Below, piece after piece: positions 24,001 through 27,000 of a stretch of 64,000 bases of DNA. The first letter of the stretch is position 1, and each line of letters opens with the position of its first letter. The DNA comes from Escherichia coli. GTDB lineage: Bacteria > Pseudomonadota > Gammaproteobacteria > Enterobacterales > Enterobacteriaceae. The stretch lies in the NCBI RefSeq assembly GCF_003018255.1, contig NZ_CP027440.1. One strand, 5' to 3'. The position numbers are program-made.

Positions 24001-27000
24001 CTGACCGAAGGCCGTAACCGTGAAGTTCGTCGTCTTTGGGAAGCGGTTGGTGTGCAGGTAAGCCGCCTGATCCGTGTTCGTTACGGTGATATCCCACTGC
24101 CGAAAGGTCTGCCACGCGGTGGCTGGACGGAGCTGGATCTCGCCCAGACTAACTATCTGCGCGAACTGGTGGAGCTACCGCCAGAAACCAGCTCTAAAGT
24201 CGCTGTAGAAAAAGACCGTCGTCGTATGAAGGCGAATCAGATTCGTCGAGCGGTTAAGCGTCACAGTCAGGTGAGCGGCGGTCGTCGTTCTGGCGGACGT
24301 AATAATAACGGTTAATTTAAGATAAGTATAAAATAAAGGCCCTGCGGGGCCTTTTCTTCATTTGAAGCATGATAAATAGTCGCAGTATTTTAATTTAATT
24401 TCATACTTGCTTATGAATAATACCCGGAAATAGCCACATTACTATTTAATTATCTGAGATAAACTCAACGTCAAGAGGTGGGTTATGATTAGATATAGTG
24501 GAATATTTCTATCGCTGTTAATGCTTTCAGGTTGTGCAACCGAAGCATTGAAAAACGAACAAGCTGAAACTGTTATTACTGCGGGTAACAAAGCAGTAGC
24601 GGCGAATGCAAGTTTCTTTAAACAATACTATGCTTCTCGTGAAAACTTCCTTGTTAATTTCTACGCGACTAATCCGGATTGTGCCCTGCGACCTGATTAT
24701 ACCATTGATATAGGCGGTGATGGGAATGGCGGAAAATTATGCCAGCGTTCAGGGCCAAATACAAAACAAGTACAATTAGTCCCTTTCGAGAAAGAAAAAT
24801 TACTGGCTTCAATGGAAGTCATTAATAGCATGAGCGCTTATGTGGAACTTCTGACAAAGGATATGGCAACTACGGAAAGTCAGCAAGTGGCATTACTTAA
24901 ACAGGCTCTGGATCACGCAAACAACGCACAAACACTACTTGGTGTTTCACATAGCAAAGATTTAGCTCAATCTGCAGCAGCGGTTAAAGATTTGGTAAAT
25001 TATTTCAATGAGTTATATATAATTAAAGTCAATTCTGGAAAAATAGGCAAAACGGTAGATGAAAACTGGGTAAGACTTATAAAAAACATGACTGTTTTGC
25101 GTAATGATATTTATACAAAAGGCGATAAGATTGAAAATTATACCTTTGCGAATGTACATAATAATATGATTTATTATAATGCGGTATCTAAAAACTCTAA
25201 GAATACAGAGTTTAACACTCTGAAAAACAGGAAGGAGTTTCTAAGTTCAGTAATCAATGTGAATGAAACCAGACTACAGGCATCGGCACCTGCCATGCCT
25301 GCGATTGAGGCTTTGAATGCCTTTATAGATAAGGGTGATTATCTGAAAAGCTTATACGTTAATAAAACACGCACGGCAGCTGAACAAAAAAGATTAAATG
25401 AAATATTACGCGCACAGGTCATTAGTGGGTTAAAGGCGTCTGAGGGGCTGGCAAAATTACTTATTGCCAGCGGAATAATGTTATAGGAGGCTTTTTATGA
25501 ACGATGTGCAAAACCGTAGAATACTGGCATTACTTGATATGCTGTATAATACTTTGGGTAATAAAACCACATGTAATGTTTGTCATAAATATTTTATCCT
25601 TATCCTCACGGTGATGAACAATCTGACGATTAACTACGGTACTGAAACTTCGCCAGAGTTAAGCGGAATCAGTTATGAAGATGCCAATGCGTTAATTACT
25701 GAACTGATATTATTTATTGAAGATGTTGACGCTGAGAATCATGAAGCATATCAGGGACATTTGAATGAGATTACACGTATTCTGAATTTCGCTATTGCCG
25801 CTTGAATATAATCATGATTAAAGCACCTCAAGAGGCTTCTTTTGAGGTGCTTTCACTTAGTAGTCAATCCCTATCTGCGCTTTTACACCGGCATCAAACG
25901 CATGTTTCACGGGGCGTAATTCACTCACCGTATCCGCCAGTTCAAGAATATCCCGATGACAGCCTCGACCCGTGATAATCACCGTCTGTTGATGTGGACG
26001 TTCATTTAACGCCTGCACCACTTCTTCCAGTGGCAAATAGTCATACGCCACCATATACGTCAGTTCATCGAGCAAAACCATATCCAGTGAAGGATCGGCC
26101 AGCATTCGTTTGGCATGTTGCCAGACTTCACGGCAGGCCGCGGTATCAGATTCGCGATTTTGTGTATCCCAGGTAAAGCCCGTTGCCATCACCTGAAACT
26201 CAACGCCATGTGGCTCCAGTAGATTGCGCTCGCCATTAGGCCAGGTGCCTTTAATAAACTGCACGATACCCACTTTTTTGCCATGGCCTACTGCACGAGT
26301 TGCCGTACCAAATGCCGCGGTGGTTTTGCCTTTTCCATTGCCGGTAAAGACGATGATAATACCGCGCTCATCCTGGGCCTGGGCCACACGAGCATCGACT
26401 TTTTCTTTCACTCGCTGCTGACGCTGTTGGTAGCGTTCATCACTCATTGGGAAATTCCTGGTTTACGGCCCGGTTGGGCGTCAAAGGTCATGCCGGTTTT
26501 ACGGCGGCTGTCATCGCCCATCAGCCAGAGGTAGAGCGGCATGATATCAGCGGGTGTTTTAAGTTTCTGTGGATCTTCGGTCGGGAAGGCGCTGGCACGC
26601 ATTGCGGTGCGCGTACCGCCTGGGTTAATGCAGTTGACGCGCAGGCGCTGCTGATATTCATCGGCCAGTACCTGCATCATCCCTTCGGTGGCAAATTTCG
26701 ACGCTGCATATGCGCCCCAGTTGGCTCGTCCCTGACGTCCAACGCTTGATGAAGTAAAGACCAGTGAACCGGCGTCCGATTTGAGTAATAAAGGAAGCAG
26801 TGCCTGGGTGAGCATAAAGGTGGCATTAACGTTGACCTGCATGACGTCCTGCCAGACCTGCGGATTTTGTTCGCTCATAGGGCAAACATCGCCGAGCAAT
26901 CCGGCATTATGCAAAACACCATCCAGACGCGGATAATTAACGGCAATGCGCTGTGCCAGTTGTTGGCAATCTTCGGACGTGCAGGTCAGCAAATCGAGAA

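What the first reader, a model, noticed from the sequence alone, without database searches (positions are those of the whole stretch)
24357..25856. Low-GC two-gene islet (lipoprotein plus small coupled protein) between rluB and btuR
I recall rluB being followed directly by btuR in K-12. Here about 1.5 kb of visibly A/T-richer DNA carries its own promoter-like region, a 333-aa lipoprotein gene and a tightly coupled 102-aa cytoplasmic protein gene, closed by a bidirectional terminator. I recognise neither protein family. Compact, horizontally acquired pairs of this kind are typical of toxin/immunity, exclusion or anti-phage modules.
Basis: partly seen in the sequence, partly recalled or inferred. 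Interest (0 to 1): 0.75.

Follow-up and report, generated by a model that had tools for sequence, protein, structure and literature searches.

The report
Uncharacterised lipoprotein-plus-small-protein accessory operon
Between two housekeeping genes this E. coli carries a real two-gene operon (an outer-membrane lipoprotein and a small acidic partner) of unknown family; about a quarter of E. coli have it, in three very old variant forms, and distant relatives ride on prophages and mobile islands, so it is a reasonable but unproven candidate for a new envelope-level exclusion or defence module.

Summary
A 1.54-kb low-GC segment (24316-25856; GC about 0.37 against 0.52) replaces the 39-bp rluB-btuR spacer of K-12. 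It carries a 333-aa lipoprotein gene, a 102-aa gene 10 nt downstream, and a terminal hairpin.

Both genes are real, with dN/dS of 0.1-0.25. Neither matches Pfam, NCBIfam, PADLOC, PHROGs or PDB sequences. The modelled fold is a generic helical bundle, closest to DUF3829/imelysin-like lipoproteins, but sequence profiles do not support membership.

The "recent horizontal islet" reading is only partly right:
- The segment is accessory in E. coli: 1237 of 5426 complete genomes carry it and 4183 have an empty site.
- It sits at the same locus in E. albertii, E. whittamii and Citrobacter, and has no mobility scars.
- It occurs in E. coli as three deep cassette types (dS about 1) with mosaic recombination.

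Distant homologues keep the lipoprotein plus roughly 100-aa ORF architecture. They lie in a P2-like prophage moron slot, in an integrase island with candidate defence genes, and beside IS and toxin-antitoxin genes.

Best guess (about 0.35): an envelope exclusion or defence module. Function is untested. Interest is moderate.

The parts
24335..24354 (+). rluB intrinsic terminator hairpin, left edge of the extra DNA. It is conserved in Escherichia and Citrobacter copies of the locus.
   Evidence: Terminator scan; fold -16.2 kcal/mol; invariant stem in alignment A5.
24379..24407 (+). Candidate promoter of the operon, GTCGCA-N17-CATACT. The two hexamers are invariant and the 17-nt spacing is constant across Escherichia and Citrobacter, while the spacer sequence varies. 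This is an inference.
   Evidence: Alignment A5 and upstream sequences. The consensus scan did not call it; it matches only about 7 of 12 consensus positions.
24400..24417 (.). Conserved inverted repeat TTCATA-N6-TATGAA overlapping the candidate -10 hexamer. It is a candidate operator; no regulator has been identified.
   Evidence: Invariant columns in A5; motif found in window, L004 and L009. It is absent upstream of distant homologues.
24485..25486 (+). Gene for a 333-aa prolipoprotein. It has a lipobox LSG|C17 with Ala at +2, which predicts outer-membrane sorting. The mature part is basic (pI 8.9) and all-helical. A beta-hairpin at 73-97 lies between the invariant Cys66 and Cys86.
   Evidence: Purifying selection, omega 0.1-0.25.
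24701..24784 (+). Hypervariable hairpin or loop (codons 73-100), the start of the exchangeable central cassette. The cassette runs from codon 73 to about codon 290 (about 24701-25355).
   Evidence: Alignments A1 and A2. Identity falls from 95-100% to 40-50% at about 24700. dN 0.88 in this stretch between cassette types.
25487..25496 (+). 10-nt spacer containing AGGAGG, consistent with close translational coupling of the two genes.
   Evidence: Sequence.
25497..25805 (+). Gene for a 102-aa acidic (pI 4.5) soluble partner protein. Cys26 is invariant among gammaproteobacterial homologues.
   Evidence: Omega 0.05-0.27.
25820..25853 (.). Bidirectional terminator-like hairpin shared by the operon and the convergent btuR; right edge of the extra DNA.
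   Evidence: Conserved in L002 and L003.

Best explanation
Shown:
- Window 24316-25856 is a self-contained two-gene operon.
- It encodes an outer-membrane-sorted, all-helical, basic lipoprotein and a small, acidic, soluble, apparently cytoplasmic partner.
- Both belong to rare, uncharacterised families, and they keep this gene order and tight spacing over very large evolutionary distances.
- In Escherichia and Citrobacter the operon is an old resident of the rluB-btuR site. In E. coli it persists as a presence/absence polymorphism (23% present) with three deeply diverged, recombining central cassettes.
- The protein evolves several-fold faster than its neighbours and is repeatedly knocked out by IS1.

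Inferred (most likely mechanism): it is a conflict module acting at the cell envelope.
- The lipoprotein is anchored in the outer membrane.
- Its elongated helical bundle presents a disulphide-stapled, hypervariable hairpin at the end far from the lipid anchor.
- It would bind or mask something an invader needs for entry. That could be an outer-membrane or periplasmic entry component, or the invader's own tail, ejection or translocation protein.
- It would therefore exclude particular phages, or possibly bacteriocins.
- Frequency-dependent selection by those invaders would keep several cassette types and the empty allele in the population.

The role of the small partner is not resolved. The favoured guess is a cytoplasmic accessory factor, such as a regulator or a second, intracellular step, rather than a specific antidote.
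For: Real genes:
- Omega is 0.1-0.25 in all comparisons.
- Both genes have strong ribosome-binding sites and a 10-nt gap between them.
- Each end of the segment has a terminator.

Lipoprotein features:
- The lipobox Cys17, Cys66, Cys86 and Tyr119 are the only invariant residues across 39 homologues.
- No homologue has Asp at +2.
- The AlphaFold model (pLDDT 71, pTM 0.66) has nine helices and a hairpin at 73-97 directly after a 45-residue first helix.

Conserved architecture: a 96-107-aa ORF lies 1-26 nt downstream in the window and in L002, L003, L004, L007, L009, L010, L011, L015, L025, L027, L031, L033 and L037. Gammaproteobacterial partners align with each other.

Mobile or conflict contexts of distant homologues:
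- One copy lies between gpS and gpV of a PSP3/P2-like prophage, which is the P2 orf30 slot. This is one of three recognised moron regions (PMC6823313, PMC3091744).
- One copy lies in an integrase/AlpA island with a PDC-S15 candidate defence gene, a putative AbiC and HicB.
- Other copies lie next to VapBC, Fic and IS200, and next to a colicin-DNase/immunity pair, IS3 and TacAT.

Population pattern:
- Among 5426 genomes there are 424 type A, 776 type B (including O25b:H4-ST131), 34-36 type C and 4183 empty sites.
- dS between cassette types is 0.9-1.25, against 0.03-0.11 in rluB and yciK.
- The E. albertii allele pairs with E. coli type B, and the E. whittamii allele with type A.
- Lipoprotein dN is 0.078 between E. 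coli type B and E. albertii, and about 0.40 between E. coli and Citrobacter. The flanking genes show 0.008-0.039 and 0.015-0.064 respectively.
- Within type A, 9 of 14 amino-acid changes fall in residues 200-238.
Against: - There is no functional data of any kind.
- There is no hit to any known or candidate defence family, and none to phage protein families.
- No copy was found in 50,697 phage genomes or in IMG/VR. Only one prophage-borne copy is known.
- The E. coli locus itself is flanked by housekeeping genes, not by defence genes.
- Overall dN/dS is well below 1, and no stretch shows statistically supported positive selection.
- A cytoplasmic partner has no obvious role in an outer-membrane blocking mechanism.
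- Fold-level resemblance to DUF3829/imelysin-like periplasmic lipoproteins would fit a physiological binding role instead.
- Recurrent IS1 disruption and loss in 77% of genomes show the operon is dispensable. That is also what a decaying gene would look like.
- Surface or periplasmic orientation, the disulphide and the position of the hairpin all rest on a medium-confidence model.
Confidence: 0.35

Rival explanations
1. A physiological periplasmic binding lipoprotein of the DUF3829/imelysin-like fold class, for example handling a metal, polysaccharide or envelope component. It would be ancestral to Escherichia and Citrobacter and decaying in most E. coli. The small ORF would be an accessory factor.
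For: - Foldseek against AFDB50 places proteins annotated DUF3829 or imelysin-like next after the family's own members (TM 0.64-0.74, E 1e-10 to 1e-7).
- The locus is the same in four species, and GC3 tracks the host.
- There are no mobility scars.
- Selection is purifying.
- IS1 knock-outs and a frameshift in the E. albertii type strain are tolerated.
Against: - None of the 39 family members hits Pfam DUF3829 or any imelysin model.
- hhalign against K-12 YiiG aligns only the signal peptide.
- The only invariant residues are three Cys and one Tyr. There is no HxxE-type metal motif (the motif is recalled from memory).
- Three cassettes with dS about 1, and protein evolution several-fold faster than the neighbours, are unusual for a housekeeping binder.
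- Distant homologues sit in a prophage and in mobile islands.
Confidence: 0.2
2. A toxin/immunity (or orphan immunity) pair. The basic lipoprotein would be a delivered or periplasm-acting toxin, or an immunity lipoprotein against a periplasmic effector. The acidic small protein would be its cognate neutraliser, as in lipoprotein toxins with downstream cytoplasmic immunity genes (the SitA/SitI type, recalled from memory).
For: - The genes are tightly coupled with a conserved order (many contexts, listed under the best explanation).
- The pair is basic and acidic: pI 8.9 against 4.5.
- The locus is multi-allelic and polymorphic.
- Neighbours in other taxa include a colicin-DNase/immunity pair and toxin-antitoxin modules.
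Against: - No toxin, enzyme or pore-forming domain is detectable by sequence or fold.
- There are no hydrophobic helical hairpins.
- No delivery system is encoded nearby.
- The natural mosaic L003 combines a different central cassette (dN 0.22) with the window-type partner (dN 0.025). The partner therefore does not co-vary with the variable part of the lipoprotein.
- The high-GC homologues have partners with no detectable similarity and a basic pI.
Confidence: 0.12
3. A surface-exposed variable lipoprotein used in interaction with the animal host, for example complement or serum resistance or adhesion, in the manner of TraT or Bor. Its alleles would be maintained by immune selection.
For: - A hypervariable, disulphide-bounded hairpin and a second variable patch sit on a conserved helical scaffold.
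- The alleles are old and shared between species.
- Type B is carried by O25b:H4-ST131 and by many human clinical isolates.
- One homologue is a prophage moron.
Against: - Homologous pairs occur in Methylomonas/Methylococcales and in high-GC environmental bacteria.
- Carriers include isolates from river water, poultry, pig and dog.
- There is no evidence of surface exposure.
- There is no homology to TraT, Bor or any adhesin.
Confidence: 0.12

Closest known systems
DUF3829 lipoproteins (Pfam PF12889; E. coli YiiG) and imelysin-like periplasmic proteins
   Same: They are lipoproteins of about 330-350 aa and all-helical. They are the best non-self Foldseek matches in AFDB50 (TM 0.64-0.74).
   Different: There is no Pfam hit for any of the 39 family members, and no profile match to YiiG beyond the signal peptide. 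The Cys66/Cys86 hairpin and the coupled small ORF are specific to this family. DUF3829 itself has no known function, so it offers no mechanism.
Phage- or plasmid-borne exclusion lipoproteins (T5 Llp, phi80/N15 Cor, F-plasmid TraT). Comparison from memory.
   Same: They are outer-membrane lipoproteins encoded as non-essential cargo of mobile elements. They act at the envelope to block entry. This is the kind of job proposed here.
   Different: There is no sequence or fold relationship. Llp and Cor are about 60-80 aa and TraT is about 240 aa with a different fold, and none has a coupled cytoplasmic partner. Function is not demonstrated here.
P2-family moron cargo (old, tin, Z/fun; orf30 slot)
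   Same: A distant homologue of the pair (24% identity, hmmsearch E 6e-28) occupies the S-V (orf30) slot of a P2/PSP3-like prophage at GC 0.36 against 0.56 in the flanks. That slot is a recognised site for horizontally acquired, non-essential genes (PMC6823313, PMC3091744).
   Different: P2 orf30 itself is unrelated and lies on the other strand. The window copy is not in a prophage. No copy was found in sequenced phage genomes.
Polymorphic lipoprotein toxin/immunity pairs (for example Myxococcus SitA/SitI). Comparison from memory.
   Same: A lipoprotein gene is followed immediately by a small cytoplasmic protein gene. Such pairs are polymorphic and associated with mobile elements.
   Different: There is no recognisable toxin domain. 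The variable part is central rather than C-terminal. The partner does not co-vary with it in the L003 mosaic.

Membership tests
Bacterial lipoprotein (Lgt/LspA substrate, Lol-sorted to the outer membrane) | N-terminal signal peptide ending in a lipobox [LVI][ASTVI][GAS]C, and no Asp at +2 for outer-membrane sorting | tested here: met
   MIRYSGIFLSLLMLSG|C17-A-T. The Cys is invariant in 39 homologues and none has Asp at +2. Lipidation itself cannot be tested with these tools.
DUF3829 (PF12889) / YiiG | Significant match to the Pfam model or to a family member by profile comparison | tested here: not met
   Pfam scans of the window protein and of all 39 members of A2 gave no PF12889 hit. hhalign of A2 against K-12 YiiG gave probability 5%, over the signal peptide only.
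DUF3829 / imelysin-like fold class | Structural superposition with family members | tested here: inconclusive
Known or candidate anti-phage defence systems (PADLOC-DB v2) | HMM match of either protein to a system component | tested here: not met
   No hit at E<=1 for either window protein. No hit at E<=0.01 for eight distant lipoprotein homologues and two distant partners.
Anti-phage defence or exclusion module (functional class) | Homologues enriched next to defence or mobile genes | tested here: inconclusive
   All four long non-Escherichia contexts are mobile or conflict-rich: a P2 moron slot; an integrase island with PDC-S15 and AbiC; VapBC, Fic and IS200; and a colicin DNase/immunity pair, TacAT and IS3. 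The sample is too small for statistics, and the Escherichia locus is flanked by housekeeping genes.
Anti-phage defence or exclusion module (functional class) | Protection against phage on transfer to a naive host | not testable with these tools
   Requires cloning and a phage challenge.
Phage protein families (PHROGs) / sequenced phages | Membership of a PHROG, or presence in phage genomes | tested here: not met
   PHROG hits were only marginal (E 0.017 and 0.0017, unknown function). tblastn against 50,697 phage records found nothing. IMG/VR scans found nothing.
Toxin/immunity pair | Recognisable toxin domain, and co-variation of the immunity gene with the variable toxin part | tested here: not met
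   No toxin domain by Pfam or fold. L003 carries a different cassette with the window-type partner. Toxicity itself is not testable here.
Recently acquired genomic islet | Deviant composition | tested here: met
   GC 0.36-0.375 against 0.51-0.54 in the flanking genes.
Recently acquired genomic islet | Mobility genes, flanking repeats or a tRNA target; absence from sister species at that site | tested here: not met
   There are no flanking direct or inverted repeats. The site is the same in E. albertii, E. whittamii and Citrobacter. GC3 tracks the host.

The most novel reading that the evidence does not exclude
The pair is the founding member of a new two-component envelope immunity system. A variable outer-membrane lipoprotein would recognise an incoming phage or bacteriocin component through its exchangeable cassette. 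Together with a dedicated small cytoplasmic partner it would block entry or trigger a response. It would be spread by prophage morons and mobile islands, and kept in E. coli (including ST131) as a trans-species, multi-allelic balanced polymorphism.
Probability: 0.25. Interest if true: 0.8.

Novelty: new variant of a known kind. Interest (0 to 1): 0.5.

Why it matters
If the exclusion or defence reading is right, this would be a new kind of envelope-level immunity with no relative among catalogued systems. It is carried by roughly a quarter of E. coli, including the pandemic ST131 lineage. It would therefore bear on phage-therapy host range and on how phage receptors and entry routes are protected.

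Whatever its function, the locus is a clean natural example of long-term balancing or diversifying selection: three cassettes with dS about 1, alleles shared across species, and a presence/absence polymorphism, all at a fixed chromosomal site between housekeeping genes. It is also directly testable, because it is 1.5 kb, self-contained, and K-12 offers an empty site.

Tried and rejected
Searches that found nothing useful:
- Family searches with both proteins (NCBIfam, PADLOC, PHROGs, Pfam) gave nothing significant. The same holds for ten distant homologues and for every member of alignment A2.
- PDB sequence searches with profiles A1, A2 and A4 gave only coiled-coil noise.
- Rfam found no RNA family in 23000-27500.
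- IMG/VR scans and tblastn against phage genomes found no copies.
- Literature searches on accession numbers, on rluB plus btuR, on DUF3829 and on lipoprotein exclusion found nothing about this locus.

Technical dead ends:
- The first structure prediction, from the shallow alignment A1, was unusable (pLDDT 46).
- Alignments A2 and A3 were too diverse for the search for related loci.
- Plasmid hits turned out to be mislabelled chromosome pieces. The 32%-identity hit on "pBone4_2" is an artefact of frameshift errors.
- The P0002-type hairpin variants seen in the protein database were not found among complete genomes, so no dN/dS test could be done on the hairpin within type A.

Ideas considered and rejected:
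- A ClyA-like or colicin-like pore former: there is no hydrophobic helical hairpin and no such fold match.
- Sigma-E, sigma-54 or EvgA-type sites in the upstream region: the matches are poor or not conserved in Citrobacter (reading; the consensus sequences are from memory).
- A shared operator between the Escherichia copy and distant copies: not found.
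Full report
**1. What is in the sequence**

The window carries yciQ (21334-23229), rluB (23440-24315), two extra plus-strand ORFs, then the convergent btuR/cobO (25857-26447), yciK and sohB.

- The first extra ORF (24485-25486) encodes 333 aa. It starts MIRYSGIFLSLLMLSG|CATE, a signal peptide with a lipobox and Ala at +2.
- The second (25497-25805) encodes 102 aa and starts 10 nt after the first stop, behind an AGGAGG.
- GC falls to 0.29-0.43 over 24350-25850, against about 0.50-0.57 on either side. Gene GC is 0.375 and 0.359 against 0.51-0.54.
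- rluB ends with its own terminator (24335-24354).
- The operon and btuR share a hairpin at 25820-25853 that folds well on both strands (-23.3 and -19.3 kcal/mol; z -6.0 and -4.4).
- In K-12 the rluB and btuR stop codons are 39 bp apart, with one unrelated hairpin between them. The extra DNA therefore spans exactly stop to stop, 24316-25856.

**2. They are real genes**

In every pairwise comparison between E. coli alleles, E. albertii and Citrobacter copies, both ORFs show dN/dS of 0.05-0.28. The mature lipoprotein is basic (pI 8.9). The partner is acidic (pI 4.5). Apart from the signal peptide, neither protein has a membrane-spanning stretch.

**3. No known family**

- NCBIfam, PADLOC, PHROGs and Pfam gave nothing significant for either protein.
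- A word-indexed search of 5.8 billion proteins found only 26 clusters for the lipoprotein and 15 for the partner. All are "hypothetical", from E. coli, E. albertii and Citrobacter.
- An exhaustive profile search of 1.84 billion representatives found 56 proteins. About 30 are full-length lipoproteins of 324-357 aa at 16-25% identity.
- In the 39-sequence alignment A2 the only invariant residues are the lipid Cys17, Cys66, Cys86 and Tyr119.
- With that alignment, AlphaFold gave a medium-confidence model (pLDDT 71, pTM 0.66). It has nine helices, the longest at 17-62 and 184-237, and a beta-hairpin at 73-97 between the two conserved cysteines.
- In AFDB50 the best matches outside the family are lipoproteins annotated DUF3829 or imelysin-like (TM 0.64-0.74).
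- None of the 39 members hits the DUF3829 Pfam model. hhalign against K-12 YiiG aligns only the signal peptide.

I therefore treat DUF3829/imelysin-like as the nearest fold class, not as the family.

**4. The pairing is conserved**

A 96-107-aa ORF follows the lipoprotein gene within 1-26 nt in 14 contexts: the window, L002, L003, L004, L007, L009, L010, L011, L015, L025, L027, L031, L033 and L037.

- The gammaproteobacterial partners are recognisably homologous and share an invariant Cys.
- The partners of high-GC homologues keep position and size but show no detectable similarity.
- One homologue (L018) is followed instead by a 269-aa protein with a hydrophobic C-terminal half.

**5. Where the relatives live**

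- The Escherichia and Citrobacter copies are all at the same site, rluB-[pair]-btuR. This holds for E. albertii (L007, L008, L029), E. whittamii (L028, 97% identical to the window protein), Citrobacter sp. (L004) and an unnamed close relative (L009).
- Among 100,044 species-representative genomes, only the E. whittamii and E. albertii representatives carry the close family.
- P0051 and its 96-aa partner lie between gpS and gpV of a PSP3/P2-like prophage, at GC 0.36 against 0.56 in the flanks. That is the position of P2 orf30, one of the three regions where P2-like phages carry horizontally acquired, non-essential genes (PMC6823313, PMC3091744).
- The Raoultella-type pair lies in an integrase/AlpA island with IS elements, a PDC-S15 candidate defence gene, a putative AbiC and HicB.
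- The Methylomonas pair sits among VapBC, Fic and IS200.
- Another pair lies beside a colicin-type DNase/immunity pair, IS3 and a TacAT module.
- No copy occurs in 50,697 phage genomes or in IMG/VR.

**6. Population genetics in E. coli**

Counts among the 5426 complete genomes:

| State at the rluB-btuR site | Genomes |
|---|---|
| K-12-type empty site | 4183 |
| Carry the segment | 1237 |
| Window-type cassette, type A | 424 |
| Type B, including O25b:H4-ST131 | 776 |
| Type C | 34-36 |

Nucleotide identity between types:
- It is 95-100% from the rluB stop through codon about 60 of the lipoprotein gene.
- It then collapses to 40-70% from about 24700.
- Type C regains 92-100% identity to the window from about 25350 through the partner gene. 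Type C is therefore a mosaic: a foreign central cassette (codons about 73-290) in a type-A frame.

Divergence:

| Comparison | Lipoprotein | Flanking genes |
|---|---|---|
| Between E. coli cassette types | dS 0.9-1.25 | rluB and yciK dS 0.03-0.11; btuR dS 0.12-0.40 |
| E. coli vs E. albertii | dS 0.82 (type B vs E. albertii) | dS 0.5-0.96 |
| E. coli type B vs E. albertii | dN 0.078 | dN 0.008-0.039 |
| E. coli vs Citrobacter | dN about 0.40 | dN 0.015-0.064 |

- The elevated dS in btuR, which adjoins the segment, suggests linked diversity.
- E. coli type B pairs with the E. albertii allele.
- The cassettes are therefore at least as old as the species split, or have moved between species by recombination through the conserved flanks.
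- GC3 of the pair rises with host GC3: 0.32-0.34 in E. coli and 0.39-0.49 in Citrobacter.
- There are no flanking repeats or mobility genes.

All of this argues for long residence rather than recent import.

Variation is concentrated in the hairpin between Cys66 and Cys86 (dN 0.88 between types). Within type A it is concentrated in residues 200-238 (9 of 14 changes). The gene is repeatedly broken by IS1 and is frameshifted in the E. albertii type strain.

**7. Regulation**

The consensus scan found no sigma-70 promoter upstream. However:
- The 170-bp upstream region is more conserved between E. coli and E. albertii (93-100%) than the adjacent rluB coding DNA (87-92%).
- Two blocks, TAGTCGCAG and TTCATACTTG-T-AT-AA, are invariant even in Citrobacter.
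- The spacing GTCGCA-N17-CATACT is constant while the spacer sequence varies.

I read this as a weak, probably activator-dependent promoter. The inverted repeat TTCATA-N6-TATGAA overlaps the -10 hexamer and is a candidate operator. This is inference only.

**8. Interpretation**

Shown: a selection-maintained, accessory, self-contained operon for an outer-membrane-type lipoprotein and a small soluble partner. It belongs to a rare uncharacterised family, with deep multi-allelic and presence/absence polymorphism, and its distant relatives travel on a prophage and on mobile islands.

Inferred, about 0.35: an envelope-level exclusion or defence function. The variable, disulphide-stapled tip of an elongated bundle would bind or mask an entry component. 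The points in favour are:
- the moron slot;
- the neighbourhoods of the distant homologues;
- the fast protein evolution;
- the cassette polymorphism.

The points against are:
- the lack of any functional or homology evidence;
- the housekeeping flanks in E. coli;
- overall purifying selection;
- the unexplained cytoplasmic partner.

Rivals:

| Rival | Confidence | Main basis |
|---|---|---|
| Physiological DUF3829/imelysin-like periplasmic binder in decay | 0.2 | Fold resemblance and synteny |
| Toxin/immunity pair | 0.12 | Weakened by the lack of a toxin domain and by the type C mosaic, which keeps the type A partner |
| Host-directed surface antigen | 0.12 | Weakened by homologues in environmental bacteria |

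**9. Verdict**

Its view that the pair is an unrecognised, accessory, possibly conflict-related module is reasonable. The "horizontally acquired islet" reading needs correcting to "ancient, syntenic, balanced polymorphism", and the functional class remains unproven. Interest is moderate (0.5): this is a good, cheap candidate for experimental test rather than a demonstrated novelty.

Noticed in passing
L022 (NZ_OZ546925.1) 640-3036; L040 (NZ_CP054353.1) 221-982; hits H60 and H102: IS1 elements repeatedly interrupt the lipoprotein gene in different strains and cassette types. There are two copies in L022, one at codon about 10 in L040, and one in a type B allele (H102). Many database proteins of this family are "partial" and end at contig ends, which fits IS-caused assembly breaks.
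   Followed up: partly
L029 (E. albertii NBRC 107761) 2898-3916: The lipoprotein gene of the E. albertii type strain matches in two different reading frames (residues 1-236 and 234-333). It is therefore frameshifted, or the assembly has an error there.
   Followed up: no
window 25857-26447 (btuR/cobO): btuR, which adjoins the segment, has a within-E. coli dS of 0.12-0.40, against 0.03-0.11 for rluB and yciK. This looks like diversity linked to the old polymorphism next door.
   Followed up: partly
window 24316-24484: The non-coding upstream region is more conserved between E. coli and E. albertii (93-100%) than the neighbouring rluB coding DNA (87-92%). It contains invariant blocks, GTCGCA-N17-CATACT, and an inverted repeat TTCATA-N6-TATGAA that is also kept in Citrobacter.
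   Followed up: partly
window 21334-23229 (yciQ): yciQ (DUF2207, 631 aa) is lower in GC (0.43-0.47) than its neighbours. It is absent from the E. albertii and Citrobacter loci, where yciO is followed directly by rluB. It is present in E. whittamii. It may be a second, older insertion in this region.
   Followed up: no
L014 (CP054249.1, 'plasmid pBone4_2') and H61/H62: Several PLSDB "plasmid" records that matched are chromosome pieces carrying the trp-rluB-btuR region. CP054249.1 is full of frameshifts, which produced a spurious 32%-identity homologue.
   Followed up: yes
L010 10026-10613 (minus strand): The same P2/PSP3-like prophage carries another non-P2 gene (Peptidase_C92 domain, opposite strand) between gpI and the tail-fibre gene H. 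This is a second cargo insertion in the tail module. It has no PADLOC hit.
   Followed up: partly
L025, L026 and L033-L036: In one subgroup of homologues the pair is always preceded by an SRAP (YedK-like) gene and followed by a conserved 172-aa ORF on the opposite strand. This may be a larger conserved unit.
   Followed up: no
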